Origin: Enterobacteria phage KhF3
Strand: one strand, 5' to 3'
Sequence record: KT184315.1
DNA length: 64,000 nucleotides
The notes beneath the pieces were generated by a model. The model was not told the DNA's origin and searched no databases. It saw only the letters and a list, made by a program, of their open reading frames with translations. How positions within the stretch are numbered: the first letter of the stretch is position 1; each line of letters begins with the position of its first letter. A program made the translations under genes and the position numbers. Positions 6,173 to 30,951 of this stretch are shown here, piece by piece.

Positions 6173-6177
6173 AAAAT

Positions 6178-6255: not shown

Positions 6256-6256
6256 A

Positions 6257-6503: not shown

Positions 6504-6510
6504 ATTAATT

Positions 6511-6585: not shown

Positions 6586-6591
6586 ACTAAT

Positions 6592-6667: not shown

Positions 6668-6673
6668 ATTGTT

Positions 6674-6749
6674 TGGTACAGGTGGAGGGAATTGAACCCA
6701 TCGTCTTACTGATTAAGAGTCAGCCGCATAACCATTTTGCTACACCTGC
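6674..6749 (-). tRNA. tRNA-Lys (anticodon CTT)
   Basis: Acceptor and anticodon arm fold, but T-stem is only 3 GC pairs. Confidence 0.5.
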
Positions 6750-6756
6750 ATTAATT

Positions 6757-6833
6757 TGGTACACCTAGAGAGATTCGAACTCACACTGAGCAGATTCTAA
6801 GTCTGCTGCCTCTACCAGTTGGGCTATAGGTGC
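6757..6833 (-). tRNA. tRNA with anticodon TAG (Leu by anticodon), short variable arm
   Basis: Acceptor GCACCTA/TAGGTGT, anticodon stem GCAGA/TCTGC loop CTTAGAA, 5-nt variable loop, 74 nt without CCA. Confidence 0.55.
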
Positions 6834-7086
6834 ATTAAATCTTTTTAGAGAACTTCTAAGAACCTAAGCAACAAGGCTCCACAACAAGCTGTAATAACCT
6901 TAGAAGCCCTCTAAAAAGACCTAAATAGGTCTTTGCATAGTCTTGTTTAATCCGGTGACTAGAACCTTTGGAGAGCTTGATATTATCTCTTCTCCGTGAC
7001 ACCTACTAGGTGCTTTGACAGTGTACGACAATACACGAGGGATAAACCGACAATGCGAACAAGCATGGACGGAGTAAATCTTATTA

Positions 7087-7176
7087 GGCGGTAAGTAAAG
7101 GAGTCGAACCCTCACCGTATCTCTACAGTGGCAACTGTTTTCAAGACAGTTTGGCTACCATTAGCCGCTACCTACC
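7087..7176 (-). tRNA. tRNA-Ser (anticodon TGA), class II
   Basis: Acceptor GGTAGGT/ACTTACC, anticodon stem ACTGT/ACAGT loop CTTGAAA, long variable arm. Confidence 0.55.
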
Positions 7177-7189
7177 CCTAATAAGACTT

Positions 7190-7272
7190 TGGCATGGGAC
7201 GGAGGAGTTGAACCCCTTTGAAACGGTTTTGGAGGCCGTTGCTCATGCCTTAGAGTCTTAACATCGTCCCAT
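7190..7272 (-). tRNA. tRNA-Trp (anticodon CCA)
   Basis: Acceptor ATGGGAC/GTCCCAT, anticodon loop CTCCAAA; D region longer than usual. Confidence 0.5.
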
Positions 7273-7414
7273 ATTATAATTCGAAGCTTACCCTGTTATC
7301 TCAACACTGTCAAGCTTCTTCTCAGATTATTTACATGTTCTGGAAAACATGAGATACAGACCACCTCCCTACAGGAAGACCCGCTAAGGCCGTCTAAGTA
7401 ATCTGCTAACTATT

Positions 7415-7491
7415 TGGTACACCCTACAGGATTCGAACCTGTAACTAACGATTTAGAAGACCGTTGCTCTATCCAATTGAACTAAGGGTGC
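7415..7491 (-). tRNA. tRNA-Arg (anticodon TCT)
   Basis: Anticodon stem ACGGT/ATCGT loop CTTCTAA. Confidence 0.7.
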
Positions 7492-7737
7492 ATTATCTTT
7501 AAAGACTCTCTTAGAAAGCCCTTAAAGATGCCCACCTTATTAATCATACCGTGGGCGAGTACGCCAAATTCTTTGATGAGGGATTGGAAGACCTCACTGG
7601 TGTTTAGCCTATCAAGCTACTGCCAGAAAAACATTGTCGTTTGCATTTATTTTAAATTTGCAAAATAGACGCTACGCAACGAAAACTAAGGTTACTATAA
7701 AGTAGTCACATCTCAATGTCAACAACTTTATTGAAAT

Positions 7738-7813
7738 TGGTACTGGTAGGTGGAATCGAACCACCGATGTTCCCTTATCAGGGGAGTGTTATAACCTTCT
7801 TAACTATACCAGC
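7738..7813 (-). tRNA. tRNA-Ile (anticodon GAT)
   Basis: Anticodon loop CTGATAA, T-stem GGTGG/CCACC. Confidence 0.65.
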
Positions 7814-7814
7814 T

Positions 7815-7891
7815 TGGAGGTTCAGATGGGAATCGAACCCACATTCATAGGGCTTATGAGACCCTTGCATTACCTTATCTGCGACTGAACC
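7815..7891 (-). tRNA. tRNA-Met (anticodon CAT), elongator-like
   Basis: Acceptor GGTTCAG/CTGAACC fully paired, anticodon loop CTCATAA. Confidence 0.65.
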
Positions 7892-7969
7892 AGAATAAGT
7901 ACCCTAGTTAGAGAAACTGTTGAGTGGGTGTTTCCAGCCGCGCAGGTGTTTCTCAGTTAAGGGTGAATT

Positions 7970-8045
7970 TGGTAGAAGTGGAGGGATTCGAACCCATCGC
8001 CTGTCAGATTAAAAGTCTGCCGCATCACCATTCTGCTACACTTCC
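7970..8045 (-). tRNA. tRNA-Lys (anticodon TTT)
   Basis: Anticodon loop CTTTTAA; T-stem weak, same T-arm sequence as the CTT copy. Confidence 0.55.
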
Positions 8046-8050
8046 ATTAA

Positions 8051-8192
8051 ATTATCTTTGTAGATAAGCTACCCAGACTTGCTTAAGGTCTGTAGCGATG
8101 TGCCTTTTTGGGTTTAAATCTAGAATTTACCCTTTCACCCTTTGTGGTCGCATACTCACAGGTAAGCTTAATAACTTATCTACAAAGATAAT
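8051..8192. repeat. perfect 17-bp inverted repeat flanking about 108 bp
   Basis: ATTATCTTTGTAGATAA at 8051-8067 and its exact reverse complement at 8176-8192. Confidence 0.8.
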
Positions 8193-8194
8193 TA

Positions 8195-8326
8195 CCAGAC
8201 CGTTGTTTATCATCTTAAGTGCTACCATTACACCAACTCGACATCTGCCGAGTGAAGGAATCGAACCTTCGCCTTTTCTTTACCGGAGAAATAGATTGTT
8301 TAAGTTTTGCTGTAAACGGTCTTCTG
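8195..8326 (-). ncRNA. candidate structured small RNA with tRNA-like module
   Basis: Closing stem CCAGACCG / CGGTCTTCTG; inside, T-arm GAAGG-TTCGATT-CCTTC followed by an ACTCGGC/GTCGAGT hairpin and a D-arm-like GTGTAATGGTAGCAC; order is not that of a canonical tRNA. Confidence 0.35.
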
Positions 8327-8339
8327 TAAAATTGTTGAG

Positions 8340-8418
8340 CCAGACCAAGTTTTATAAATTTTTTCAAAATTAAATTGGCTTGAAAATATCATACGTACTT
8401 GCTGAATTTGGTCTTCTG
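8340..8418 (-). other. inverted-repeat-bounded spacer element
   Basis: CCAGACCAAG ... TTGCTGAATTTGGTCTTCTG. Confidence 0.3.
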
Positions 8419-8505
8419 CTCCTTTAAAGAATACTCGTAAGAACTCTTTAAGGGAGGGGCTAAAATAGCCCTCTCAAACATCATTTTGAAATACTTATTA
8501 TAATT

Positions 8506-8583
8506 TGGCGGTTACGAAGGGATTTGAACCCTCATCATCTCCCGTGACAGGGGAGTATTTTAACCAGATTAAACTACATAACC
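8506..8583 (-). tRNA. tRNA-Asp (anticodon GTC)
   Basis: Anticodon stem CTCCC/GGGAG loop CTGTCAC, CCA encoded. Confidence 0.7.
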
Positions 8584-8589
8584 TTTATT

Positions 8590-8677
8590 TGGTGTGCCGT
8601 GTAGGAGTCGAACCTACCGAGTCTCAATGACAAGGGATTTACAGTCCCCACCGCTACCATCTACGGGATAACGACAC
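8590..8677 (-). tRNA. tRNA-Tyr (anticodon GTA), class II
   Basis: Anticodon loop CTGTAAA, long variable arm, T-stem GTAGG/CCTAC. Confidence 0.65.
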
Positions 8678-8686
8678 ATTTAAATT

Positions 8687-8763
8687 TGGCGGTTAGTCAG
8701 GGATTCGAACCCTGTGCCATTCGCTTAACAGGCGACCGCACATACCTTATGTGCTTCCTAACC
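8687..8763 (-). tRNA. tRNA-Asn (anticodon GTT)
   Basis: Anticodon loop CTGTTAA, T-arm CAGGG-TTCGAAT-CCCTG. Confidence 0.65.
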
Positions 8764-8774
8764 TTAATACATTG

Positions 8775-8834
8775 CCAGACCGTGTTTTTTCTTTTATCCG
8801 CAAAAAGTATTTTGTTGCTGAATACGGTCTTCTG
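8775..8834 (-). other. inverted-repeat-bounded spacer element
   Basis: CCAGACCG ... TTGCTGAATACGGTCTTCTG. Confidence 0.3.
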
Positions 8835-8840
8835 CAAAAT

Positions 8841-18513: not shown

Positions 18514-19062
18514 ATGGAAAAAGATAACTTAAAAGAAGTTGAAGGTAACTACTTAGTACTTGACTGGAAGGATGTTCGGGAAGCACTCTCCGAAGAAAAT
18601 CTTGACTGGTTCGAACAAATTATCTTTGCAGTACGGCATAACCGAGAAGTTGAAAATGGTAAAGAGCCACTTGAAGGAATCTTTGTAGAAAGGTCTTATC
18701 CATTCTATGAAGACACTTTGCAGAAAGTTAAGATGTACTTTAAACAGAAGAACCGTAAAGTGGTCACTATGGTATCTCTTGGTGGACAGAGTATGTCTGT
18801 GATGGAAGATATCAACCCTAAGAGACCGAGTAAAGGTGTTTGTATAAAAATCACAGGACATGAAGAGTATATCTCAGTGGCTGACTTTAGTGCATTCTGT
18901 AGTGGTTCTTGTGTCTTTAATGGTTTTCACTATGATATCCGAGTGTACCCAATCAAGGGAGATGCTGTTATGATGCAGATATTCGATAACAATAATGGAT
19001 TTACTCATTTTTATCAGACAACTAAGTCATCCCTAAAAACAGTTCTGGAAACACTGATTTAA
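18514..19062 (+). CDS. hypothetical protein
   Basis: In-frame ATG at 18514 avoids 60-nt overlap of track start 18439. Confidence 0.5.
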   Translation: MEKDNLKEVEGNYLVLDWKDVREALSEENLDWFEQIIFAVRHNREVENGKEPLEGIFVERSYPFYEDTLQKVKMYFKQKNRKVVTMVSLGGQSMSVMEDINPKRPSKGVCIKITGHEEYISVADFSAFCSGSCVFNGFHYDIRVYPIKGDAVMMQIFDNNNGFTHFYQTTKSSLKTVLETLI

Positions 19063-19073
19063 AATATCTTAAG

Positions 19074-19100
19074 AGCCTCCTTAATTGGGGGCTTTTTATT
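19074..19100 (+). terminator. rho-independent terminator ending plus block
   Basis: AGCCTCC-TTAATT-GGGGGCT followed by TTTTATT. Confidence 0.7.
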
Positions 19101-20676
19101 GAGTAAAATTTACGAAATTTATATTTTTTATAAAATTTTATCGGTTGTTCCAACCTCTGGGTCACCATCATATGTGAACAAAATATCTATCCTTCTTAAC
19201 AGCCTTCTTAATCTTATTCTCTATATAGTTATATAGTACTATATAGTATCTTAGTAACTATCTAGTGGTCTTAATAGCCCTCTGTATAGCCCTTCTAAAT
19301 AGCCCTCTAAACACTCTTCTAACAAGCCTTCTTAACAACCTATACAATCACCTTAACCATCTCTCTACACTCTCTTAGAAGCTCCTATACACCTCTTAAT
19401 CTCTATGTCAGCTATGATACTCTCTATAGGTGTTCACTAGGTGCTACTAAGCCTCTATATAGACTGTTTTAACAAACTTAACAGGAATATCTTTACAGAC
19501 CTTATCTCACAAGGTCTAACACGGTACTAACAAGGTATCTTATAAGCCTGTTATTACCTGTATTTTAGAAAGACTGTATAGGTAATTATTCAGATTTTTA
19601 AAATTTTTATAAAATAGGACTATCAAGTCATTTTTTAGGGTCTTTGAAGGAACTGAAAAATATCTGTAGAAGATGTATATCTGCTTGGTAGCCCTTAACA
19701 TCCCTGTAACATCCCCTTTGCAAAATTTTAAAATATCCTTAACAATCTCTTAACAGTTCTCACATCTTCTTAATAACTCTTCAAAGTTCTTAACAGATTC
19801 TTAACAGAACTAACAAGGGCTTAACAGTTTTCTAACAAGTGCTGAATAGACTTTACAGAATCTTAACAGATTCCTAACAAGAGCTCAGTAGTTAAATGTT
19901 AAGAGTTATTTTGTTAAGATAATTAACAAGTTTCTAACAAGTGTTTAATCTTTTTAACAAGCTATTAACATGGTCACTACTCTTTTCTTATCGTTCCCTT
20001 TCCTTTCTTAGTGATTCCTTAAACATACCTCTTAAAAGCTCTGTATAGCTCTGTATAACCCCTTTTAAGCCTCTTCCTAGTAATTACACCCCAACTATAC
20101 AGATACCTCTTTATAGGGCTTTACAGGGGCTTTAAAGGCTATGTCAAAGGTTCTTACAAGGCTTTTACGTGGTTTTAACAGAGATTTAACAAGGGGCTAA
20201 CAAGTCTCTAACAAGTGCCTTAAAAGCATAACTATGTAGGGATTGTTAAGAAATTGTTAAGAAAATGTTAAGGGGGCTAGCATTTACGTAACTTTTAAGC
20301 AACTTTGAAGTAACTTTATAACCCCTATAACATACTTTTCAGTTACTATCAAGGGGCTTGTTTAGTAGTTCACAAGATAGCTAACGAGATAATAAAACTT
20401 ACACCCTTATAAGATTCTTTTAAGGTTCTAGGAAGCTTTATAAAGGGCTTTTTAGAGCAGGTTAATATGATTGCTTAAGTTAGGTTGATAAGGCTGTTAT
20501 AGAGCTTTATAGAGCGTTTTAGTGGTTGCCCTTCCCTTTCGGGTTATGGGCTTATATTTAAGTTGATTTGATAAGAAGATATAGAGTAGACTATAGAGTT
20601 ATTGCTTTTAAGGTCTGGTAAGATTCTAACTTGTTAGGGGAGTCTGGGAAGATTCTGGGAAGGGATTGGATAGACG
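19101..20676. repeat. 1.6-kb non-coding region dense in short direct repeats (YTAACAR, CTATAGAG families)
   Basis: No ORF over 60 aa; more than 20 copies of CTTAACAG / CTAACAAG / TTAACAAG-like octamers; lies between convergent terminators. Confidence 0.7.
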
Positions 20677-20702
20677 TAAAAAAGCCCCTATGAGAAGGAG
20701 CT
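20677..20702 (-). terminator. rho-independent terminator ending minus block
   Basis: Minus-sense AGCTCC ... GGGGCT hairpin followed by T6. Confidence 0.6.
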
Positions 20703-20740
20703 TTTCAGGTATCTGGGGCTAAATAGCCCCGTTGCGTCGA

Positions 20741-20989
20741 TTAGTTGTAACCTTGTTTGCTGTAGTATAGGGAGACGATTTTTTCTCCCCAGTAGTGGTA
20801 GTGATATTCCTCGTTTATGGCTTCTTTTACAGCGTCCTTCCAAAAGTCATCGGTAGGGTTATAATCTGGTAGCACCTGCTGAATCAGCATTTTGATAAGG
20901 TCAAAGGTGTTATCTGTTCCACCGATATCGAATTTTGCATCAAGTTCGTGGCAGCCATAAGCATTAACAGTTACGCGGATAGTTGACAT
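20741..20989 (-). CDS. early-region small hypothetical protein
   Basis: 82-aa ORF preceded by cassette with GGAG RBS. Confidence 0.5.
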   Translation of the reverse strand: MSTIRVTVNAYGCHELDAKFDIGGTDNTFDLIKMLIQQVLPDYNPTDDFWKDAVKEAINEEYHYHYWGEKIVSLYYSKQGYN

Positions 20990-21054
20990 AATTTAGATTC
21001 TCCAGTTTAGGACTTTACTTAGTGGGGGGAGGTCATCCCCCGTTAATTAGTAAT

Positions 21055-21318
21055 TTACTGCATATTGGCGTATGTTGCAAGCCTTTTTTCGTTGTATTTT
21101 GTAAGAATCTCACAAGATACAACATCATACTTTGTAACAGCGTTGCCTTTATCGAGGTCAAAAAAGCCAAACGCTTTACCATCTTTGAATCCGACAACTT
21201 CGTAAGATTCTTTGATGATTTCACCATTGAACAAATCACTTTCGATACGGTGAAATAATGCTACATCTTCTTTGTCGGTTGCAATTTGTAAAAGTGTGGT
21301 TAATTCTACGTTTTCCAT
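21055..21318 (-). CDS. early-region small hypothetical protein
   Basis: Chosen over overlapping track ORFs because the cassette RBS sits immediately upstream. Confidence 0.5.
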   Translation of the reverse strand: MENVELTTLLQIATDKEDVALFHRIESDLFNGEIIKESYEVVGFKDGKAFGFFDLDKGNAVTKYDVVSCEILTKYNEKRLATYANMQ

Positions 21319-21407
21319 CTTGATAACTCCAGTTTAGGACTTTATTTAGTGGGGAAGGTCATTCCCTCCCCGTTGATTGACAATTTACAGATTTTTATCA
21401 GGCTTGT

Positions 21408-21641
21408 CTAGTCTTTTTCAATGATAATTTCATACTGACCATCTACGCTGTCAAAATAGACACCTTCTTCATCTTCTGTCTTAAAGTAACATTGTATATC
21501 ATCACTGGCGGGATAGTCTTGCCTTGCTATCTGGCACACTTGAACAGCATTTTCTTTACTCCCTGTAAACTCCTCAAGCCCTTTAAAATCGCATGAATGA
21601 CCGTTACAAATAGAAAGGATGAGGTAAATGGTTGTAAGCAT
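21408..21641 (-). CDS. early-region small protein with hydrophobic N-terminus
   Basis: 77-aa ORF. Confidence 0.45.
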   Translation of the reverse strand: MLTTIYLILSICNGHSCDFKGLEEFTGSKENAVQVCQIARQDYPASDDIQCYFKTEDEEGVYFDSVDGQYEIIIEKD

Positions 21642-21707
21642 GATTTAAGCCTCTTAAAAGCCCCTTACAGGGGCTGAATAGTGTTTATAAGGTGATTGCA
21701 TAGGTTT

Positions 21708-22250
21708 TTAGAAAAAACCCTTTAAATCCTCTTCTGCGATGTTTCCTGTCAGTGTATCCATGATGTCACAAAAAACCTGAATACTGTCCGACTGTTGAAC
21801 ACTTTTAGCAAGTAGTTCTAATGTCTCATCAAGATAGTTTAAATTTGGGTTATCCAATGAAGGAAGACAAAAAGGTGAATACATAGCGTTAAACTCTGTT
21901 GTATAGACCTTTTTAATCCAATTTATATCAAAATACTCTGTAAAACTTGCTACACTCGACATATTATCACAAGAATAATCATCGTTTAGTTCATCCTCTG
22001 GAATATCAAGTTCTAGGATAACAATATTTTGTGTCTTCATCTGGAAAGCTGCGGTGATAGTGGCATTGCCTAAAGCTTGCTGGATACCTTCAGAGATTAT
22101 TTCTTCCTCATCGTCGCCATAGATTTTATTTTCTGGATACACGTAAAAATTGCCGTCCATATCCGAACAATTCCATGCGCCTGATGGTTTATCACCGTTA
22201 TTAATCAGGTTGAGGAAATTTTCTTGAGTAGTTCCGTGATAGCATTTCAT
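21708..22250 (-). CDS. early-region hypothetical protein
   Basis: 180-aa ORF. Confidence 0.5.
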   Translation of the reverse strand: MKCYHGTTQENFLNLINNGDKPSGAWNCSDMDGNFYVYPENKIYGDDEEEIISEGIQQALGNATITAAFQMKTQNIVILELDIPEDELNDDYSCDNMSSVASFTEYFDINWIKKVYTTEFNAMYSPFCLPSLDNPNLNYLDETLELLAKSVQQSDSIQVFCDIMDTLTGNIAEEDLKGFF

Positions 22251-22337
22251 TTTTGAATCTCCTAGTTTAAGGATTTAGTGGTAAAGCTCTTTATCTGGGG
22301 CTTACTTTATCGAACTATAAGCCCCTTGTAAAGTACT
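22251..22337 (-). promoter_or_regulatory. early-gene cassette type A: promoter overlapped by palindrome, then RBS
   Basis: Minus-sense AT-rich tract, TTTACA, 17 nt, TAAAGT; palindrome GGGGCTTA-N13-TAAGCCCC spans the -10; GGAGA RBS; about 7 near-identical copies. Confidence 0.55.
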
Positions 22338-22586
22338 TTATTTAACTTTCTTTGAGAAAATTAGTTTAACTGCAACCGTAGGAACCTCGTCAGCGATTGT
22401 AACCAGCATCACTTTTTGAGTGACCAACTTATAACCGTTCTTTGCAGCGTATGCGGTAAAACGGTTGACATTGTAACTATAAGTTTTTGGTGTGTTATCT
22501 GGCATGTGGTAAATGAAAGGTTTACCCAAATTTTCTTCTTGTGTCAATAATCTACAGGTATCGGGAATGTTAAAGTAGTTCATCAT
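22338..22586 (-). CDS. early-region small hypothetical protein
   Basis: 82-aa ORF flanked by cassettes. Confidence 0.5.
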   Translation of the reverse strand: MMNYFNIPDTCRLLTQEENLGKPFIYHMPDNTPKTYSYNVNRFTAYAAKNGYKLVTQKVMLVTIADEVPTVAVKLIFSKKVK

Positions 22587-22672
22587 TTTTAGAATCTCCA
22601 GTTTAGGATTTAGTGGTAAAGCTCTTTATCTGAGGCTTAAGTTATCAACTTTTAAGCCCCTTGTAAAGTACT

Positions 22673-22876
22673 TTATTTGTTATTTTTGACAACTTTTAAA
22701 ACTGCAAGATAGCCTAAGCAATAAGAATCACCGAAGAGAGTCCTACCCATGAAAGAATCCTCTTTGATATCCTTTGCAGTGACAGTTTTTTCTACGCCGT
22801 GGGAAAGGACTATATCACCAACTTTGATATCTTTGATGTGTGTAGTTTCAATGGTTAAACCATTAATAATAGCCAT
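22673..22876 (-). CDS. early-region small hypothetical protein
   Basis: 67-aa ORF flanked by cassettes. Confidence 0.5.
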   Translation of the reverse strand: MAIINGLTIETTHIKDIKVGDIVLSHGVEKTVTAKDIKEDSFMGRTLFGDSYCLGYLAVLKVVKNNK

Positions 22877-22978
22877 TTTTAGAATCTCCAGTTTAGGACT
22901 TTATTTAGTGGGGAAGGTCATTCCCTCCCCGTTGATGTGTAATTTAATCTATCTAAAAACCAGTGTCAACAAAATTTT
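22877..22978 (-). promoter_or_regulatory. early-gene cassette type B: promoter, leader hairpin, RBS
   Basis: Minus-sense TTGACA (22964-22969), 17 nt, TAAATT (22941-22946); 8-bp GC hairpin GGGGAGGG/CCTTCCCC in the leader; GGAGA RBS; about 5 copies. Confidence 0.6.
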
Positions 22979-23383
22979 TTAGAGTTCTGCATAAATTGCA
23001 TCACAGATATCGCGGAAGTCATGATTAGTCAAATTACGCTGCAACCAAGTGGCGAAAAAGTCAGCGATTGCAAAGTTAGCATCATACTCGACAGATAGCC
23101 ACACTTTAACAGCAAATCGGAACATTTTCAAATCTAACTCTTTATTCATTACCTTAGATTTGCCTAACATGTCGGACATTTCATATTGCGCACCGTCTAG
23201 TGTGATACCTGCTGCAACGTCAGCCAATGAATTTTTTACGTTTTCAACGTCTAAAATAACGCTTTGAATCTTTCCGATAATGTTGTGCAATGTCTCATCA
23301 GGCGCTGATGATGTCATAATGTTGATTCGATTAACGGTCAAACGTGCTTTTAAGGTTGATAATTCACGGTTATTAATAGCCAT
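22979..23383 (-). CDS. early-region hypothetical protein
   Basis: 134-aa ORF. Confidence 0.5.
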   Translation of the reverse strand: MAINNRELSTLKARLTVNRINIMTSSAPDETLHNIIGKIQSVILDVENVKNSLADVAAGITLDGAQYEMSDMLGKSKVMNKELDLKMFRFAVKVWLSVEYDANFAIADFFATWLQRNLTNHDFRDICDAIYAEL

Positions 23384-23468
23384 TTTAGAATCTCCAATTT
23401 AGGATTGAGTGGTAAAGTTCTTTATCTGGTGCTTACTTTATCGAACTATAAGCCCCTTGTAAAGTACT

Positions 23469-23741
23469 TTATACTAAATGCAGCTTTTTACCTTTTACTA
23501 TGATGTAACTAGATGCACTATTGCTTTGCACATCCTGATAAATTCTGCGCAAACGTCCTTCGTAGTATACTTTCCAACTGGTTGGAATCTTTTTCCCGTA
23601 TCCTGTAGCAGTTTTTTGGAGTCCTGCAACTTGCCAATTTAAGATGTGTTGCTCAGCCCGTAAATCTTCAAAGCACATCACACCGTCTACATAGTGACGC
23701 AAGGTGACATTTAAGGTGCGACCGTTGTTAGTAGTATACAT
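23469..23741 (-). CDS. early-region small hypothetical protein
   Basis: 90-aa ORF. Confidence 0.5.
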   Translation of the reverse strand: MYTTNNGRTLNVTLRHYVDGVMCFEDLRAEQHILNWQVAGLQKTATGYGKKIPTSWKVYYEGRLRRIYQDVQSNSASSYIIVKGKKLHLV

Positions 23742-23830
23742 TTTCAGAATCTCCAGTTTAGGACTTTATTTAGTGGGGAAGGTCATTCCCTCCCCGTTGA
23801 TGTGTAATTTAGCCTATCTAAAAATCAGTG

Positions 23831-24163
23831 TCAAACACTTTGTTTTCGTTTGCTCAATTCTTGAACAATTACAGCGTAGTAGTCTTTTAAGTCACTGATA
23901 TTTAAAGCGTTTATCAGTGAATTATAATCATCAATAAGTTGATAGTCATCTTTGAAAATGTCACTAATCTGATAGGTTTTCGCTTTAAATCTAAAGCTCA
24001 TCTCTAGCCGCTTTATTTGCTCATCACTTAAACGCCCTAGAAAGCTCTCTACAAGGTTATTACTAACCTGCTGTGTGATTGCCTTACTTGCCAGATTATA
24101 GGCTTTATATGCCTTATATAGCGCGAAAATGGCAATGATTGCAGTGATACCAGTCATTAACAT
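23831..24163 (-). CDS. early-region small membrane protein
   Basis: N-terminal hydrophobic helix. Confidence 0.5.
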   Translation of the reverse strand: MLMTGITAIIAIFALYKAYKAYNLASKAITQQVSNNLVESFLGRLSDEQIKRLEMSFRFKAKTYQISDIFKDDYQLIDDYNSLINALNISDLKDYYAVIVQELSKRKQSV

Positions 24164-24453
24164 GGTGTTTCCTCTTTACGTGATACTTTGCCATTTACAG
24201 ATATCTCATAAGATTCTAATAAATCGCTTTTAGACTTTACAGGACTTTTAAAAGTATCATCATAAATATTAACTTGCAATACAGGTTTTTTATACTCCCT
24301 GCAACTGTTCCATAAGCAAATCACTACACGACGGCCTTTGATTTTTCCGTGTAACCATTCCATAACATCATGACTATTCCTTGATGTTTCAATGAAATCA
24401 ATTTTATTAAGTAACTTGCTTAAATTTTCACGGACTTTATTTGATAATTTCAT
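24157..24453 (-). CDS. early-region small hypothetical protein
   Basis: 98-aa ORF. Confidence 0.5.
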   Translation of the reverse strand: MKLSNKVRENLSKLLNKIDFIETSRNSHDVMEWLHGKIKGRRVVICLWNSCREYKKPVLQVNIYDDTFKSPVKSKSDLLESYEISVNGKVSRKEETPC

Positions 24454-24545
24454 TTTAGAATCTCCTAGTTTAAGGGTTGATTTGAATAAAGCTCTTTATC
24501 TGGGGCTATCTTATCAGTCTGATAACCCCGTGTAAAGAAATCTAT

Positions 24546-25058
24546 TTAGTTCTTAAAGATATTCATCACTGAGTCTTTCAACGATTCCAAACGTTCTAAT
24601 ACTTCAGATTCTGCGTCTGCGTTGTTCACCTCTTCTTTTAGTCTATCCTCTAAATCATCGCCGTCACGATAGCACCAATCGAAAGCATAACCAAGATAAA
24701 AACTTTCTAAAACCGTGCTACCGTTTGCATCCACAACTTTCGCGGCAAGGTTATACTCTGAAGCCTCTAAATCTCTTTCTAGTTCTTTCTGTAAGCTCGT
24801 GTAAGCCTCTTTCGATGGATTCTCACGGCCTTGTTTTGCATAGTCACTTGAAAGCTGTTTAAGGCTGTAATGTAAAGGGATTGCATATTTAAATTCATTA
24901 CGCTGACAGTTAGGATTTTTAATCGTCACACCGCCTTGATGGTCATCTGTAAACTTCCAATTATCAAGATTATGGCTTGCTTCAAAGCAATTTACCGCTT
25001 CGTAAATAATGGTGAATTTTTCTTTTACAACTTCAAAGGTAGCGTCTACAGTTTTCAT
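24546..25058 (-). CDS. early-region hypothetical protein
   Basis: 170-aa ORF. Confidence 0.5.
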   Translation of the reverse strand: MKTVDATFEVVKEKFTIIYEAVNCFEASHNLDNWKFTDDHQGGVTIKNPNCQRNEFKYAIPLHYSLKQLSSDYAKQGRENPSKEAYTSLQKELERDLEASEYNLAAKVVDANGSTVLESFYLGYAFDWCYRDGDDLEDRLKEEVNNADAESEVLERLESLKDSVMNIFKN

Positions 25059-25145
25059 TTTTGAATCTCCTAGTTTAAGGATTGAGTGGTAAAGCTCTTT
25101 ATCTGGGGCTTAAGATATCAACTTTTAAGCCCCCTGTAAAGTACT

Positions 25146-25454
25146 TTATTTGTTAATTTTCAGCTTTGCATAACTTCTCATTGTACGAATGGGGGATGTT
25201 AATGCTACGCGTCTAATGTATGCCTTTTTCGTGTATACAGTTGTCTTCCCGATAGTGTTTACACATGTAAAAAGGTTTATCGGTGAATTTTTTAACTTCA
25301 ACTGTTTATCAACCTTCACGCCCCACCTTACAGCAGATTGTTTTCCGTTGTCAACCACTTTCCCGCATAACTTTTTAGCCATGATACGAGCGTCATCACG
25401 AGTCTTTGCGGTAATTACAACGTTTTTGATAATAGCCATTTTTAAGTTCTCCAA
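25146..25454 (-). CDS. early-region small basic protein
   Basis: 102-aa ORF. Confidence 0.5.
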   Translation of the reverse strand: MENLKMAIIKNVVITAKTRDDARIMAKKLCGKVVDNGKQSAVRWGVKVDKQLKLKNSPINLFTCVNTIGKTTVYTKKAYIRRVALTSPIRTMRSYAKLKINK

Positions 25455-25525
25455 TTTAGGATTTAGTGGTAAAGCTCTTTATCTGGGGCTTACTTTATCG
25501 AACTATAAGCCCCTTGTAAAGTACT

Positions 25526-25909
25526 TTATTTGTTAATTTTGAAGGTAGTTACATAACCATCACTACCGATTATTTGAGACACTCCAGCTTTTTCTACTTT
25601 ATAGCCCATATTTTCAAGATGATAAACAGCATCATCATAACCATATGCGCCACCCTGATAACGTCTCTTATCACATTTTATCAGGTTTTTACCACGTCCA
25701 GCAAGTGCATGTAAAATGGCTTTTTCACTTGAAAGAGTACCATCTAACATGGTTGCCGTGTAATGGTTGATTCTATTCCCGTTTACATCATACTTAAAAT
25801 TGAATGCGTGAACAATGATAATGTTACCTTTAAAATTTTCATCAAGTGACTTCTCCAGTGCGTTGCGAAAGTTGTCTTTGTTGATGAATTTCGGTGCACG
25901 ATAAGCCAT
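25526..25909 (-). CDS. early-region hypothetical protein
   Basis: 127-aa ORF. Confidence 0.5.
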   Translation of the reverse strand: MAYRAPKFINKDNFRNALEKSLDENFKGNIIIVHAFNFKYDVNGNRINHYTATMLDGTLSSEKAILHALAGRGKNLIKCDKRRYQGGAYGYDDAVYHLENMGYKVEKAGVSQIIGSDGYVTTFKINK

Positions 25910-25997
25910 TTTTGAATCTCCTAGTTTAAGGGTTAATTTAGTAAAGCTCTTTATCTGGGGCTTAAGATATCAGCTTTTAAGCCCCCTGTAAAGTACT

Positions 25998-26219
25998 TTA
26001 TTTGTCGTAGTAGTAAATCGCTGTCTGCCTTGTAAATTTCTTAGTGTTTCTTGTAAGGTAGCAATTAGAATTAATAGCCGTTTCTACATAGTTGCAATAG
26101 TCGGCTTCTGATATTCTGGACCATACGCCACAAATTTGCATGTAAAAACGTTTTACCTTTGTGTTAACGTTAGTTGTAACCATCAATTCACGACTGTAAA
26201 GCATTATTTCGCGCTCCAT
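25998..26219 (-). CDS. early-region small hypothetical protein
   Basis: 73-aa ORF. Confidence 0.45.
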   Translation of the reverse strand: MEREIMLYSRELMVTTNVNTKVKRFYMQICGVWSRISEADYCNYVETAINSNCYLTRNTKKFTRQTAIYYYDK

Positions 26220-26392
26220 TTCTCAAAGAGTTCAGCAGGGAAACGTTCGCTATACCCTTTTAAGGAAAAAGTATTATCTTTGTGGATAGCTTCCACCTGA
26301 TAAACCTTATAAGAGCGTATAGTTAGCATTTTGTAAGAGTATTCGTGCTTAATGTTAACCTCATCGCCAACTTTAATTTTTCTTGATGCCAT
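26204..26392 (-). CDS. early-region small hypothetical protein
   Basis: 62-aa ORF, first gene behind promoter 26456-26484. Confidence 0.45.
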   Translation of the reverse strand: MASRKIKVGDEVNIKHEYSYKMLTIRSYKVYQVEAIHKDNTFSLKGYSERFPAELFEKWSAK

Positions 26393-26455
26393 TTTTGAAT
26401 CTCCAGTTTAGGATTTTATTTAGTGGGGAAGGTCATTCCCTCCCCGTTGATGTAA

Positions 26456-26484
26456 ATATTAGATAACCACGTTCAAAGAGTCAA
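26456..26484 (-). promoter_or_regulatory. sigma70-like promoter heading the early array
   Basis: Minus-sense TTGACT, 17 nt, TAATAT, with AT-rich upstream tract. Confidence 0.6.
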
Positions 26485-26660
26485 TAAAAATTTTAAAAAT
26501 ATTTTTGGCAAAACTGTAATGAAACGGGTGCGCACGACTACCACAAAACAGAACGCAAATCAAGAATTATTTTTCAATCCGCTACAAATTTTTCTATTGA
26601 CTTTTGGGGAGAGGGGGAGTAAGAGGGGGAGAGGTGTTGGGCTGGCTGTCTATAAAAACC

Positions 26661-26839
26661 TACCTGCACAATTCTAAAATGATTTTTCTTGCCCGACCTG
26701 AGCGGAGTCTGCACGTTTTGAAAATGAAAAAGCTCTTTGGAGATTACCTGCACAGTTTGAAAATGAATTTTCTCTTTGGAGTTCAAAATTCTCTCTACAG
26801 ATTTCTCTACAGAACTCTACCTGCACAATTCTGAAATGA
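26661..26839. repeat. four direct repeats CTGCACARTTYTRAAATGA in non-coding region
   Basis: Copies near 26664, 26710, 26748, 26821; adjacent G-rich tract GGGGAGAGGGGGAGTAAGAGGGGGAGAGG at 26606-26634. Confidence 0.65.
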
Positions 26840-26912
26840 AAAAGCCCTCCTTACCTGAAAAATTTACCAGATAAGAAAGGCTTAGGCTATTGTGAATATC
26901 CTACAGAGTTTC

Positions 26913-27698
26913 TTAGTTCTTTGCGTCTAAGAAGGTAACTTCTGGTGAAGAGAAGATTGCCTCGATATCCTCATCAGTTCTTGCATAGATATAAGCTTCT
27001 GCATCACTACCAAATGTTACAGCAATTCTGTGATTGCTCTTTGACAGGTGGGTAACTAGAGCGTTACTTAGAGACATCTTTTCAACCGGAGGGTTACTTT
27101 GATGTATCTTACCTTTTCTTCGTCTGAAGAGGGTAACTGCATTATCCGTGAACACAACTACACCTGCAAAGTATTCTGGTTCACAGTAGTTCTCCCAACC
27201 TGAGCGTAACTTGTGGTACATCTCTCCTTCATAGACATATAGATAAACATCTACACTCTTCATCACCTGATTAATGATAACTGTGACGGCTTGAGGGTCT
27301 AGCCCACCGATACCTGCACCAATCATAGGTAACCCGACTTTCTTCAACTGATTGACTTCACAGTATCTGTTAAGCTGTTTCAAAGATGACTCTAAAGCAC
27401 TGTATCGGGCATCTTTACCAGTCTTAAGCTGAGTGTAAAGGTTAGCTATACGACCTTGTTTTAAACGTGCTACAGAGAAATTACCCAGTAAATTTTCACA
27501 GGGTTTGTGTCCTATACCACCTGCATATAGATAAACTTCTGTATCGGTCTCATATGCTTTTGGGTAAAGTTTAGAAATCTTGTCAGCGATACCTGCACCC
27601 ATTAAATTCATACAGTTGCAACCGTGACCGATGATGTCAAACTTACCTTTATCAAATGCGGCAAAGATATCACCATTGATTATTTTTACAATACCCAT
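26913..27698 (-). CDS. macro domain-containing protein (ADP-ribose binding or hydrolase)
   Basis: N-terminal GDIFAAF ... IGHGCNCMNLMGAGIADKI matches the macro-domain glycine-rich signature. Confidence 0.6.
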   Translation of the reverse strand: MGIVKIINGDIFAAFDKGKFDIIGHGCNCMNLMGAGIADKISKLYPKAYETDTEVYLYAGGIGHKPCENLLGNFSVARLKQGRIANLYTQLKTGKDARYSALESSLKQLNRYCEVNQLKKVGLPMIGAGIGGLDPQAVTVIINQVMKSVDVYLYVYEGEMYHKLRSGWENYCEPEYFAGVVVFTDNAVTLFRRRKGKIHQSNPPVEKMSLSNALVTHLSKSNHRIAVTFGSDAEAYIYARTDEDIEAIFSSPEVTFLDAKN

Positions 27699-27899
27699 TT
27701 AACATCTCTCCCAAGATTCTTTATCTTCTGAAGGTTTTACACGTTGCCCCTCATGGTCTACCCAGATACATCCACAACCTTCACAGATTACTGGCATTGC
27801 ATAACCAGCTTTAAAGTCATCTTCAGTGATAAGACCTTTTAAGTCACCTGTATCACGTCCAAACATTTCTATAGAACAGTCTTTGCAGAAGTCAGCCAT
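27699..27899 (-). CDS. zinc-ribbon small protein
   Basis: CxxC ... CxGC Cys pairs in 66 aa. Confidence 0.45.
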   Translation of the reverse strand: MADFCKDCSIEMFGRDTGDLKGLITEDDFKAGYAMPVICEGCGCIWVDHEGQRVKPSEDKESWERC

Positions 27900-28119
27900 T
27901 GATAATTACCTCTTGAATGATGATACCTTTACCACAACGGCTTTTAAAGTCTTCCAATGGTTGGGAGATGAAGCCACGCAAGCAATCACTAAATACTAAG
28001 TTTTTCCTGTAGGCTATCACATCGTTTGCTGTAAACGGGATGACTTCATTTCTTCCAATGAATACTGCTGACCGGATGAGTTTCCGTGTCTTTTTATCTC
28101 TGGCTAGAATTACTCTCAT
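27892..28119 (-). CDS. hypothetical protein
   Basis: 75-aa ORF. Confidence 0.4.
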   Translation of the reverse strand: MRVILARDKKTRKLIRSAVFIGRNEVIPFTANDVIAYRKNLVFSDCLRGFISQPLEDFKSRCGKGIIIQEVIING

Positions 28120-29729: not shown

Positions 29730-30425
29730 TCAATGTTTAACTAACATGGTTTTAATGTGTGGAAGGATTCTGTTCACCTTCTGCACATTCTTCTCTGTAT
29801 CTTCTATAAAACATACTATATTAAAGTAAGGAAGAATGCAAGACTGAATCATCCTCACTTTCAAACTTTCTGCATTTATAGAGTTAGTTCCAAAACCACG
29901 CATAAAAAGCATGTAATCATGCTCTATGTAATGCCTTAAAAACATCTCAGTAGGGATTCTCTGAGATTCACCTCTAGCTGTCAAGAGTCCAATGGCAGCA
30001 TGATTAGCAATTGCATCAATGATATTGAAAACATACGTCGGCTTTGCACTTACAGAGTCAAGCAAATTAGTGTACTGTGAAAATGACCCATCAATCAATT
30101 CCGTTGAGTAATCTTCGTGATTAAAATTTGTAAGAACACCATCAATGTCTGCTAAGATAAGGTTACCTTTTTCTACAAGGTCTTTATTGACTATGACTAA
30201 GCTGTCACGCCTTACACCTACAGTTTGTCCAGTCTCTTTGTCCACAACGCTCACAATTGGTTCTGATGTGTGGAACTCTTCAAGTGAACATACAACTTCT
30301 CTTGCAGTATCTTCAAAATCCCTGCACTGTTCTGGAGTCCATACACAGGAATCAAGACCTAACTCATGAGGGTGCAAGTCGTAAGCATGGCACAGTACTT
30401 CATCAGACTTTCTTAATTTTTTCAT
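29730..30425 (-). CDS. HAD-like hydrolase or phosphatase
   Basis: DxDG motif (LILADIDGVL) in C-terminal half. Confidence 0.5.
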   Translation of the reverse strand: MKKLRKSDEVLCHAYDLHPHELGLDSCVWTPEQCRDFEDTAREVVCSLEEFHTSEPIVSVVDKETGQTVGVRRDSLVIVNKDLVEKGNLILADIDGVLTNFNHEDYSTELIDGSFSQYTNLLDSVSAKPTYVFNIIDAIANHAAIGLLTARGESQRIPTEMFLRHYIEHDYMLFMRGFGTNSINAESLKVRMIQSCILPYFNIVCFIEDTEKNVQKVNRILPHIKTMLVKH

Positions 30426-30951
30426 GGTTTACCTTAGAAATGTTTGTTGCAAATTCACATTGAGCAATAACTTTCATGTTGTTATAGACATCTTGAGAAT
30501 ATTTCTTAGCTTTAGGGATTTTGTACGAATACCCAGCATTATATGATGCTAAAACTTTTTGTAAAGTCTTCTTTGACTTTGGCTGACCATGCACCTTTGT
30601 CCAAAACTCAAGCTCTTTATGTGTTTCTTTAGCGGCATAATCAAAATCTTTTAAGAGTTTCTTTTTAGCAACATTAGGACTAATTTTGTTACGCTTTACA
30701 ACAGTCTTCAAGTGATTCTGGAAGATACCATAGTCATGGGTCTTTTTATTTTCTACCTTCAGACCTAACTCTGACTCTTGTAAGGCTATAGCTGCTAGAG
30801 TGATACCCCAACCTTTACCCATGTTATTCTCACCATACTGGTAAGCTTTTAACATGTTCACTTTTTGGCTAATTGATAGCTCTGGGCAGTCAACTGCATA
30901 AGATAAGTGTGCTGTAAACATTAAGCACAAACCTAGAATCAATTTCTTCAT
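30403..30951 (-). CDS. secreted lytic transglycosylase-like protein
   Basis: Signal peptide; ES..., GIFQ and YNAG motifs typical of SLT domains. Confidence 0.55.
   Translation of the reverse strand: MKKLILGLCLMFTAHLSYAVDCPELSISQKVNMLKAYQYGENNMGKGWGITLAAIALQESELGLKVENKKTHDYGIFQNHLKTVVKRNKISPNVAKKKLLKDFDYAAKETHKELEFWTKVHGQPKSKKTLQKVLASYNAGYSYKIPKAKKYSQDVYNNMKVIAQCEFATNISKVNHEKIKKV

What the first reader, a model, noticed from the sequence alone, without database searches (positions are those of the whole stretch)
22877..22978. Type B cassettes place a strong GC hairpin in the 5-prime leader
In about 5 cassettes (20990, 21319, 22877, 23742, 26393) a TTGACA-17-TAAATT or TTGACT-17-TAATAT promoter is followed by an 8-bp hairpin GGGGAGGG-AATGA-CCTTCCCC and then the RBS. 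A conserved leader hairpin could be an RNase III site, an mRNA-stabilising element, or a protein-binding site.
Basis: seen in the sequence. Interest (0 to 1): 0.5.

Follow-up and report, generated by a model that had tools for sequence, protein, structure and literature searches.

The report
Promoter-plus-hairpin cassettes of Felix O1-like phage
A short GC-rich RNA hairpin sits right at the predicted start of several early-gene transcripts of a Felix O1-like phage, as part of a repeated promoter cassette much like the "PeSL" cassettes of T4-like phages; it most likely protects the mRNA 5' end, but this needs experiments.

Summary
The window is a Felixounavirus. On the minus strand, five intergenic cassettes carry a sigma-70-type promoter (-35, 17 nt, -10), exactly 10 nt, a GC-rich hairpin, an A-rich leader, GGAG and ATG. 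Four hairpins are identical (8 bp including one G-U). The fifth, upstream of the gene starting at 20989, is a 6-bp variant with a weaker -35.

Across Felixounavirus, Suspvirus and Mooglevirus I found 174 such cassettes with 75 distinct leaders and about 47 distinct hairpins. In 69 of 75 leaders the stem starts at the same nucleotide, 10 nt after the -10 box. Loops and stem lengths differ even within one genome. This favours a generic RNA structure over a specific protein site.

No U-tract follows the hairpin, so it is not a canonical terminator. Eight base pairs is too short for RNase III.

Gene-content breakpoints between relatives fall on the cassettes. The system therefore resembles the PeSL cassettes (promoter-early stem-loop) of T4-type phages, with the stem-loop moved to about +4 of the transcript.

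My best mechanistic guess is a 5'-terminal stem-loop that shields early mRNAs from RppH- and RNase E-dependent decay. No transcription start-site data exist, and strict compensatory covariation within the closest family was not found. Moderate interest; a new variant of a known kind.

The parts
22964..22969 (-). -35 hexamer TTGACA of the Type B cassette named in the finding
   Evidence: The position is conserved in 174 related cassettes, while the 17-nt spacer is not.
22941..22946 (-). -10 hexamer TAAATT, 17 nt after the -35
   Evidence: A TAnnnT hexamer sits at this fixed place in 174 of 185 anchored instances.
22931..22940 (-). Discriminator and predicted start region, ACACATCAAC. The predicted start is A 22933 (alternatively 22932 or 22934), leaving 2-4 unpaired nt before the stem.
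   Evidence: Inferred from sigma-70 geometry (start 7-8 nt after the -10 box, purine preferred). The ATCAAC motif and the 10-nt distance are invariant. No experimental start-site data.
22910..22930 (-). Leader hairpin GGGGAGGG-AAUGA-CCUUCCCC. 5' arm 22930-22923, loop 22922-18, 3' arm 22917-22910. Eight pairs, one of them G-U.
22890..22909 (-). A-rich, unstructured leader ACUAAAUAAAGUCCUAAACU. Its 3' part (CCUAAACU) is shared with Type A cassettes.
22874..22889 (-). Shine-Dalgarno GGAG (22889-22886), 9-nt spacer, and the ATG (22876-22874) of a 67-aa ORF of unknown function (phrog_3623)
23742..23834 (-). Second Type B cassette: TTGACA 23834-23829, TAAATT 23811-23806, identical hairpin 23795-23775, GGAG 23754-23751, ATG 23741
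26393..26484 (-). Head-of-operon Type B cassette: TTGACT 26484-26479, TAATAT 26461-26456, identical hairpin 26445-26425, ATG 26392. It lies about 350 nt downstream of a canonical terminator (26883-26842 plus U-tract).
21319..21410 (-). Type B cassette with a weaker -35: TAGACA 21410-21405, TAAATT 21387-21382, identical hairpin 21371-21351, ATG 21318
20990..21080 (-). Variant Type B cassette: TTGCAA 21080-21075, TAAATT 21057-21052, 6-bp hairpin GGGGGA-UGACC-UCCCCC at 21041-21025, ATG 20989
22251..25997 (-). Context: seven Type A cassettes interleaved with the Type B ones (upstream of the starts at 22250, 22586, 23383, 24453, 25058, about 25454, and 25909). Each has TTTACA-17-TAAAGT, with the stem-loop GGGGCUUA..UAAGCCCC lying between the -35 and -10 boxes, and the same SD region.

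Best explanation
The Type B element is a repeated early-gene regulatory cassette of a Felix O1-like phage. It consists of a host sigma-70 promoter, a GC-rich RNA stem-loop that begins 2-4 nt after the predicted transcript start, an unstructured A-rich leader, and a GGAG ribosome-binding site.

Shown:
- The promoter geometry is conserved.
- The stem-loop is kept at one fixed position while its sequence, length and loop change.
- It is not a canonical terminator.
- The cassettes bound gene-sized insertions, deletions and replacements, as PeSL cassettes do in T4-type phages.

Inferred: the hairpin works without sequence specificity as a 5'-terminal stem-loop. It leaves too little single-stranded 5' end for RppH and for 5'-end-dependent RNase E, and so prolongs the life of early phage mRNAs. 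In read-through transcripts from upstream promoters the same hairpin would lie between cistrons, where it could also block 3' exonucleases after cleavage in the A/U-rich leader.
For: 1. The anatomy is exact and repeated.

2. The promoters look real. In 174 cassettes from the window, nine loci fetched from annotated phage records and 57 IMG/VR loci, the -35 hexamer (TTGACA 46, TTGCAA 45, TTGACT 25, TTGACG 24, TAGACA 20...) and the -10 hexamer (TAAATT 105, TAAAGT 35...) are conserved at 17-nt spacing, while the spacers are not. In Felix O1, ORFs 21 and 22, which follow Type B cassettes, peak 5 min after infection by RT-PCR (mapped).

3. The structure is under selection.
- In 69 of 75 distinct leaders the best-energy helix starts at exactly the 4th nucleotide after 'AAC'.
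- 73 of 75 leaders fold better than 95% of their own shuffles; mean -11.9 against -3.6 kcal/mol.
- There are about 47 distinct hairpins, 33 loops and stems of 3-9 bp.
- On a stem-registered alignment, 6 of 9 pairs change on both sides, and the covariation score is 0.283 against 0.099 in shuffles (0 of 500 reach it) and at most 0.085 when partners are slid.

4. It acts as RNA on the sense strand. G-U pairs occur at several stem positions (26 hairpin-and-position combinations), but only one A-C opposition was seen. The sense strand folds better than the antisense in 48 leaders, against 26 the other way. As DNA, the canonical arms are only 7/8 complementary.

5. Spacing. The distance from the -10 box to the stem is fixed at 10 nt (11 in ATCAGAC variants). 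The distance from the stem to the SD box ranges from 4 to 24 nt. The constraint is therefore on the 5' side.

6. The head-of-operon cassette (ATG 26392) follows a strong terminator and about 350 nt of non-coding DNA, so no upstream cistron is served there. The orthologous head promoters in Suspvirus and Mooglevirus keep different hairpins at the same place: GGGC-AAACAA-GCCC, GGGGU-AAGCAA-GCCCC, GGGA-AACA-UCCC.

7. Established knowledge: 5' secondary structure stabilises E. coli mRNAs because RppH and RNase E need single-stranded 5' ends (review PMC3997798, citing Emory 1992 and Bouvet & Belasco 1992).

8. PeSL-like behaviour: nearly all homology breakpoints against KhF2, tootiki, ASO1A and Felix O1 lie at cassette edges.
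Against: - No transcription start site has been mapped. The +4 position rests on promoter geometry alone.
- With 3 unpaired nucleotides, protection from RppH may be only partial (the cited review says RppH acts preferentially on single-stranded 5' termini but gives a minimum unpaired length only for the B. subtilis enzyme).
- Type A cassettes of the same phages carry an equally conserved stem-loop between the -35 and -10 boxes. That stem-loop cannot be at the 5' end of its own transcript, so a single function shared by both types would have to be something else (terminator, 3' barrier, or a DNA-level role).
- Within the closely related canonical hairpin family, a model-based alignment shows no two-sided compensatory change, only G-C to G-U, and the covariation score is not above shuffles.
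- The strong covariation signal comes from an alignment fitted to each sequence's own best fold, and from hairpin families that may be replacements rather than point-mutated homologues.
- Some related cassettes have lost the hairpin (L005 near 10524, L006 near 8458).
- In the Felix O1 RT-PCR table the two cassette types show no clear difference in timing.
Confidence: 0.45

Rival explanations
1. Transcription attenuator or terminator, the role proposed for PeSL stem-loops. The hairpin would stop or dampen read-through from the promoters of upstream cassettes, so that each small gene is expressed mainly from its own promoter.
For: - In RB49 and phi1 PeSLs, a polyG/polyC stem-loop reduced lacZ expression about as much as rrnB T1 when placed behind a strong promoter (PMC2839356).
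- Cassettes here are densely stacked, with no other terminator between genes.
- Type A stem-loops lie upstream of their own transcript start, so they can only act on read-through RNA or as DNA.
- GenBank annotators of ASO1A and KhF2 called these hairpins rho-independent terminators.
Against: - No U-tract: 1-3 U in the 8 nt after the stem in all 75 variants. The phage's canonical terminators elsewhere have 5-6.
- The consensus scan finds no terminator at any cassette.
- In Type B the hairpin lies after its own promoter, so it would attenuate that promoter too.
- The head-of-operon copy already follows a strong terminator.
- The KhF2 annotation is on the strand opposite to the genes.
Confidence: 0.2
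2. Intercistronic 3'-end barrier or insulator only. After RNase E cuts the A/U-rich leader, the hairpin protects the upstream cistron from 3' exonucleases, and it keeps the mobile cassette's RBS region from pairing with whatever gene lies upstream.
For: - Both cassette types place a GC hairpin between the upstream stop codon and an A/U-rich leader.
- The hairpin is self-contained and followed by a leader predicted to be unstructured.
- This fits modules that are shuffled next to arbitrary genes.
Against: - It does not explain the invariant 10-nt distance to the -10 box.
- It does not explain why the hairpin is kept at head-of-operon promoters with no upstream cistron.
- No cleavage data exist.
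Confidence: 0.12
3. A passenger inverted repeat acting at the DNA level. It would be a GC-rich recombination hot spot or homology block that is kept uniform by gene conversion between cassettes, with no role in the RNA.
For: - Four copies are identical within the window.
- The homology shared by Type B cassettes starts at ATCAAC and runs through the hairpin and leader, while the promoter parts differ.
- In RB49 a PeSL crossover was mapped inside the stem-loop's loop.
- One breakpoint against tootiki maps at 26443, the 5' base of the hairpin.
Against: - Stems persist even though their sequences are unrelated.
- The G-U pairs are asymmetric and favour the sense RNA.
- Recombination homology does not require self-complementarity.
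Confidence: 0.1
4. A specific binding site. This could be a boxB-like RNA hairpin for an N-type antiterminator or a translational repressor, or a DNA operator centred near +14 for a repressor that shuts off early genes.
For: - A hairpin close to the start of early transcripts is where lambda-type nut sites sit, and an inverted repeat at +4 to +24 is a classic operator position (established knowledge).
- GGG...CCC at the base of the stem is nearly invariant.
Against: - 33 different loops and stems of 3-9 bp, so the distance between the conserved GGG and CCC varies.
- Up to five different hairpins in one genome, e.g. Sf13.
- No boxA-like motif in the 20-27 kb region.
- No Rfam family matches.
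Confidence: 0.06
5. An RNase III processing site, as between the early genes of T7.
For: It is intercistronic in read-through transcripts, by analogy with the T7 early region (established knowledge).
Against: The stem is 8 bp here and 3-9 bp in relatives. RNase III substrates are roughly 20 bp of mostly continuous duplex (established knowledge).
Confidence: 0.02

Closest known systems
PeSL (promoter-early stem-loop) cassettes of T4-type phages RB49/phi1, T4/PST and KVP40/nt-1 (Arbiol et al. 2010, PMC2839356; Comeau et al. 2014, PMC4122927)
   Same: - Intergenic cassettes of roughly 70-100 bp.
- An AT-rich upstream region and a sigma-70-like early promoter.
- A stem-loop rich in polyG/polyC.
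- SD and start codon at the 3' end.
- Many copies clustered among small genes of unknown function.
- Gene-sized indels and replacements bounded by the cassettes.
- Type A cassettes here have the typical PeSL layout, with the stem-loop between the -35 and -10 boxes.
   Different: - A different phage subfamily (Ounavirinae rather than T4-type).
- I did not test sequence similarity to RB49 PeSLs.
- In Type B the stem-loop lies downstream of the -10 box, at about +4 of the cassette's own transcript. The paper gives 'between -35 and -10 or overlapping -10' as the commonest positions.
- No U-tract.
- Terminator activity and mini-circle formation are untested here.
5'-terminal stabilising stem-loops of E. 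coli and phage mRNAs (ompA 5' UTR hairpin, papA, T7 gene 10 leader; Emory 1992 and Bouvet & Belasco 1992, cited in PMC3997798)
   Same: A stable hairpin within a few nucleotides of the (predicted) 5' end. It works by structure rather than sequence, which matches the free variation of loop and stem here.
   Different: The 5' end is only predicted here. No half-life data exist. The element is repeated and mobile rather than a single-gene leader.
Rho-independent terminators, as these hairpins are annotated in GenBank records KT184314 (KhF2) and MZ726791 (ASO1A)
   Same: A GC-rich stem-loop of suitable stability in an intergenic region.
   Different: No U-tract. They lie downstream of a promoter and directly upstream of an RBS. 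In KhF2 they are annotated on the non-coding strand.
Lambda/P22 nut boxB hairpins
   Same: A small hairpin with a 5-nt loop near the start of phage early transcripts.
   Different: The loop is not conserved and the stem is longer and of variable length. No boxA was found. I did not search for an N-like protein.

Membership tests
PeSL cassettes (T4-type phages) | Strong sigma-70-like early promoter with an AT-rich upstream region | tested here: met
   The -35 and -10 hexamers are conserved at 17-nt spacing, with variable spacers, in 174 cassettes. An AT-rich tract lies upstream, e.g. AAAAATATTTTTAAAATTTTTA before 26484. Promoter activity itself was not tested.
PeSL cassettes (T4-type phages) | Stable stem-loop, often polyG...polyC, within the cassette | tested here: met
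   GGGGAGGG/CCUUCCCC, -17.9 kcal/mol for the leader; 69 of 75 variants keep a stem.
PeSL cassettes (T4-type phages) | [quoted passage not shown] | tested here: not met
   In Type B the stem starts 10 nt after the -10 box. Type A cassettes of the same region do meet this feature. The paper says positions vary, so this is the commonest position rather than a strict requirement.
PeSL cassettes (T4-type phages) | SD and start codon at the 3' end; intergenic; many copies among small ORFs of unknown function | tested here: met
   Twelve cassettes lie between 20.9 and 26.5 kb. The downstream ORFs match only PHROGs of unknown function.
PeSL cassettes (T4-type phages) | Cassettes bound insertions, deletions and replacements between close relatives | tested here: met
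   Megablast breakpoints against KhF2, tootiki, ASO1A and Felix O1 fall at cassette edges in about 19 of 22 cases. Caveat: repeated cassettes will naturally end homology blocks.
PeSL cassettes (T4-type phages) | Stem-loop terminates or attenuates transcription; mini-circles form by cassette recombination | not testable with these tools
   These were experimental results in PMC2839356.
Rho-independent (intrinsic) terminator | GC-rich hairpin immediately followed by a U-rich tract | tested here: not met
   1-3 U in the 8 nt after the stem in all 75 variants. The scan finds terminators at 26883 and 29243 but none at the cassettes.
5'-terminal mRNA-stabilising stem-loop | Hairpin within about 0-4 unpaired nucleotides of the transcript's 5' end | tested here: inconclusive
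   The predicted start (A of CAAC, 7-9 nt after the -10 box) leaves 2-4 nt. No experimental start site was found in the literature searched.
5'-terminal mRNA-stabilising stem-loop | Acts through structure, not sequence | tested here: met
   47 distinct hairpins and 33 loops at the same position. This is consistency, not proof of function.
5'-terminal mRNA-stabilising stem-loop | Lengthens mRNA half-life in an RppH- and RNase E-dependent way | not testable with these tools
   Needs rifampicin chase experiments on stem mutants.
Lambda-type nut site (boxA plus boxB) | Conserved boxB loop, with boxA upstream | tested here: not met
   Loops vary. No YGCTCTTWA motif lies between 20 and 27 kb.
RNase III substrate | About 20 bp of nearly continuous duplex | tested here: not met
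   8 bp here, 3-9 bp in relatives.
Any Rfam family | Covariance-model match | tested here: not met
   No match at E <= 1 in window 19000-28000.

The most novel reading that the evidence does not exclude
Felix O1-like phages (Ounavirinae) carry their own PeSL-like system of mobile promoter cassettes in two architectures. [quoted passage not shown] There it would act as a built-in, sequence-independent shield that lets early phage mRNAs survive 5'-end-dependent decay, possibly decay that the phage itself turns against host mRNAs. The same cassette would serve as the homology block for shuffling early host-takeover genes.
Probability: 0.3. Interest if true: 0.6.

Novelty: new variant of a known kind. 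Interest (0 to 1): 0.42.

Why it matters
If the mechanism holds, three things follow.

- It would extend PeSL-type modular shuffling beyond T4-like phages. That would explain why the early-gene region of the widely used Felix O1-like typing and biocontrol phages is so variable.
- It would correct database annotations that call these hairpins terminators, in one case on the wrong strand.
- It would provide a natural series of about 47 compact 5' hairpins, all in the same promoter and RBS frame. These could be used to test the rules for 5'-end protection by RppH and RNase E, and as insulating leader parts for expression design.

Tried and rejected
- Rfam search of 19-28 kb, both strands, E <= 1: no match.
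- Plain MAFFT alignment of 65 leaders followed by RNAalifold: no consensus structure, because indels in stems and loops put the arms out of register. I therefore built an N-padded alignment registered on the stems. That alignment is fitted to each sequence's own fold, and I say so wherever I use it.
- Covariance model built from that alignment. It recovered mostly the canonical hairpin family at marginal E-values. On its alignment there was no two-sided covariation, which limits the covariation claim.
- RegB-like shut-off of the GGAG sites. The neighbouring ORF that some records call 'endoribonuclease' (30403-30951) has no supporting Pfam hit, only a sub-threshold SLT match, and a PHROG of unknown function. 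Idea dropped.
- boxA/boxB antitermination: no boxA in the region and variable loops. Rejected.
- A second promoter inside the leader that would put the hairpin upstream of the start. TAAAGT at 22903-22898 has no -35 box at 16-18 nt (read directly from the sequence). Rejected.
- Literature searches for Felix O1 or Felixounavirus start-site or transcriptome data, and for PeSLs outside T4-like phages. Nothing relevant apart from the Felix O1 genome paper, which lists parts of these cassettes as unexplained 57-bp and 39-bp direct repeats.
- The Erwinia Kolesnikvirus locus has Type A-like cassettes and hairpins overlapping the -10 box, but I saw no Type B layout there. Type B may therefore be limited to Felixounavirus, Suspvirus and Mooglevirus.

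Full report
**What the window is.** Megablast of 20000-27000 matches 261 phage records, almost all Felixounavirus (Felix O1-like, Ounavirinae) infecting Escherichia, Salmonella and Shigella, at up to 96% identity. The region from 20.7 to 26.5 kb is a run of small genes on the minus strand. They match only PHROGs of unknown function. It corresponds to Felix O1 ORFs 15-23.

**Checking the observation.** The hairpin pattern occurs four times without mismatch, at 21351-21371, 22910-22930, 23775-23795 and 26425-26445; 0.12 matches are expected by chance. A longer pattern covering hairpin and leader finds a fifth, variant copy at 21000-21044. One search gives exact coordinates.

For the cassette named in the finding, read on the minus strand:
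- TTGACA 22969-22964
- 17-nt spacer
- TAAATT 22946-22941
- ACACATCAAC, 10 nt
- hairpin GGGGAGGG-AAUGA-CCUUCCCC, 22930-22910
- leader ACUAAAUAAAGUCCUAAACU
- GGAG 22889-22886
- 9-nt spacer
- ATG 22876

The copy before ATG 21318 has TAGACA as its -35 box. The copy before ATG 20989 has TTGCAA and a different 6-bp hairpin, GGGGGA-UGACC-UCCCCC.

The 8-bp stem includes one G-U pair. On the other strand this is an A-C mismatch, and as DNA the arms are only 7/8 complementary. The leader folds at -17.9 kcal/mol, z about -2.9. The four identical copies are duplicates, so evidence that the stem matters has to come from other genomes.

**Surroundings.** The same region holds a second repeated cassette, Type A, in seven copies. 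It has TTTACA-17-TAAAGT, a stem-loop GGGGCUUA...UAAGCCCC lying between the -35 and -10 boxes, and the same CCUAAACUGGAG ribosome-binding region.

The cassette before ATG 26392 heads the gene run. It lies about 350 nt downstream of a canonical terminator (17-bp stem plus U-tract, 26883-26842) and is preceded by an AT-rich tract.

**Related sequences.** BLAST with the 102-nt cassette finds it in 252 phage records. I fetched these loci:
- ASO1A, Felix O1, SUSP2, Mijalis, Sf13 and mistaenkt;
- an Erwinia Kolesnikvirus;
- a Mooglevirus;
- 57 IMG/VR loci, found with a pattern that fixes only the flanks: ATCAAC, 15-45 nt, CCTAAACTGGAG.

Among these, 174 cassettes have a TAnnnT hexamer exactly 4 nt before ATCA(G)AC and a TTGACA-like hexamer 17 nt further upstream. 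The spacers are not conserved. This is the footprint of a real sigma-70 promoter. In Felix O1, RT-PCR shows that ORFs 21 and 22 (behind Type B cassettes) and ORFs 16 and 20 (behind Type A) peak 5 min after infection.

**Is the stem under selection?** The 174 cassettes give 75 distinct leaders.
- In 69 of them the best-energy helix starts at exactly the first nucleotide after 'AAC'.
- 73 of 75 fold better than 95% of their own shuffles; mean -11.9 against -3.6 kcal/mol.
- There are about 47 distinct hairpins, 33 distinct loops and stems of 3-9 bp.
- One genome (Sf13) carries five different hairpins.

On an alignment registered on the stems, 6 of 9 pairs change on both sides. The covariation score is 0.283, against 0.099 in shuffles (0 of 500 reach it) and at most 0.085 when partners are slid.

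Two caveats apply. First, that alignment was fitted to each sequence's own fold, and losing one pair shifts the register. Second, a covariance-model alignment recovered mainly the close canonical family and shows no two-sided change there, only G-C to G-U. A plain MAFFT alignment gave no consensus fold at all.

The fair statement is this: a stem is kept at one fixed place through replacements, indels and wobble changes, but classical compensatory covariation within a single lineage has not been shown.

G-U pairs occur at several stem positions, while only one A-C opposition was seen. The sense strand folds better than the antisense in 48 leaders, against 26 the other way. Both results point to sense-strand RNA.

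**Position.** The distance from the -10 box to the stem is fixed at 10 nt (11 in ATCAGAC variants). The distance from the stem to the SD box ranges from 4 to 24 nt. With a start 7-9 nt after the -10 box, most likely the A of C-A-A-C, the transcript would begin with 2-4 unpaired nucleotides followed by the stem. This is inferred; I found no start-site data.

The head-of-operon promoter keeps a hairpin in every genus examined, with different sequences: GGGGAGGG..CCUUCCCC here, GGC..GCC in Felix O1, GGGC..GCCC in Suspvirus, and GGGGU..GCCCC and GGGA..UCCC in Mooglevirus. No upstream cistron needs terminating or protecting there.

**What it is not.**
- Not a canonical terminator. Only 1-3 U occur in the 8 nt after the stem in all 75 variants, and the scan finds real terminators only elsewhere. 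GenBank annotations as 'rho-independent terminator' (ASO1A, after its own promoter; KhF2, on the strand opposite the genes) are probably software artefacts.
- Not an RNase III site, because the duplex is too short.
- Not a loop-specific protein site, because loops and arm spacing vary, and no boxA is present.
- Not any Rfam family.

**Most likely mechanism.** A stable hairpin a few nucleotides from a triphosphorylated 5' end is the classical arrangement that protects E. coli mRNAs. RppH and 5'-end-dependent RNase E both need a single-stranded 5' end (PMC3997798).

The following all fit that role: free variation of sequence, a fixed distance on the promoter side, a variable distance to the RBS, sense-strand wobble pairs, and retention at head-of-operon promoters. 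I give it about 0.45.

The main counter-argument is Type A. Its equally conserved stem-loop cannot sit at its own transcript's 5' end. A single function shared by both types would have to be attenuation, 3'-end protection or a DNA-level role. These rivals are listed with their tests.

**Comparison with what is known.** The closest described system is the PeSL cassette of T4-type phages. It combines an AT-rich region, a strong sigma-70-like early promoter, a polyG/polyC stem-loop (usually between the -35 and -10 boxes or over the -10 box), and an SD with start codon. PeSLs cluster among small genes of unknown function and mediate modular shuffling (PMC2839356 and PMC4122927).

Type A matches that layout. 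Type B differs in having the stem-loop after the start site.

PeSL-like shuffling is visible here. KhF2 and ASO1A carry an extra segment of about 1 kb flanked by two copies of the cassette at 21315-21422. The window carries extra single genes (22338-22586 and 25526-25909), each flanked by Type A cassettes, relative to tootiki and ASO1A. A 1.8-kb segment is replaced in Felix O1 between the cassettes at 21058 and 22871.

The Felix O1 genome paper listed parts of these cassettes only as 57-bp and 39-bp direct repeats, and did not count them among its promoters or terminators. I found no report of PeSLs outside T4-like phages.

**Verdict.** It is best described as a new variant of a known kind: PeSL-like cassettes in Ounavirinae, with a 5'-leader stem-loop. 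Interest is moderate. The decisive experiments are 5' and 3' end mapping and half-life measurements on stem mutants.

Noticed in passing
window 22886-22900 and every cassette; e.g. 22256-22275 (Type A before ATG 22250): The ribosome-binding region comes in two forms: UCC-UAAACU-GGAG and UCCU-UAAACU-AGGAG. The extra U and the extra A appear together, extending a small hairpin that sequesters the SD from 3 to 4 pairs. Erwinia relatives show CCUU-AUA-AAGG and CCU-UAAAC-AGG. This suggests a conserved weak stem that masks the SD.
   Followed up: partly
window 22251-25997 (seven Type A cassettes); L009 11250-15170: The Type A stem-loop between the -35 and -10 boxes also changes on both sides across genera: GGGGCUUA/UAAGCCCC, GGGGUUAU/AUAGCCCC with a U-G pair, GGGGGUUUAU/AUAAACCCC, and in the Erwinia phage GGUGUUU../..AAGCACC. 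I did not analyse it formally.
   Followed up: partly
window 22898-22906 versus 22322-22337 and other Type A upstream edges: The motif AAAUAAAGU occurs both in the Type B leader, just after the hairpin, and immediately upstream of the Type A -35 box (AAATAAAGTACTTTACA). It may be a shared ancestry mark or a common site.
   Followed up: no
window 26690-26850, minus strand: Four copies of about 22 nt (TCATTTTCAAACTGTGCAGGTA-like), followed by a C-rich tract (CACCTCTCCCCCTCTTACTCCCCCTCTCCCC). They lie in the 350-nt non-coding gap between the terminator at 26883-26842 and the head-of-operon promoter. Function unknown.
   Followed up: no
window 19757-20220: A dense array of short TTAACA-containing repeats (CTTAACAG, TCTAACAAG) in a gap of about 1 kb without ORFs at the end of the early gene run. 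The corresponding region is annotated only as 'repeat_region' in phage tootiki. They look like iterons and could mark an origin or a regulatory region.
   Followed up: no
window 62122-62383 and 63558-63794: Four copies of about 105 nt. Each starts CCTTTTTAAAAGGTCTTTAAGAGGGT and is followed by a run in which GGT recurs about every 6 nt. Nature unknown.
   Followed up: no
window 3900-9050: Repeat families carrying GGATTCGAACC-type motifs look like a cluster of tRNA genes on the minus strand, as expected for Felix O1-like phages, which have about 20-22 tRNAs. I did not run a tRNA finder.
   Followed up: no
window 30403-30951, minus strand: The ORF that some related records call 'endoribonuclease' has no supporting family hit: a weak sub-threshold SLT domain and a PHROG of unknown function. 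The annotation looks unreliable.
   Followed up: partly
L001 (KT184314 KhF2) and L003 (MZ726791 ASO1A): Public records annotate the cassette hairpins as rho-independent terminators. In KhF2 they are on the strand opposite the genes. In ASO1A they sit directly after an annotated promoter. Both are probably prediction artefacts.
   Followed up: yes
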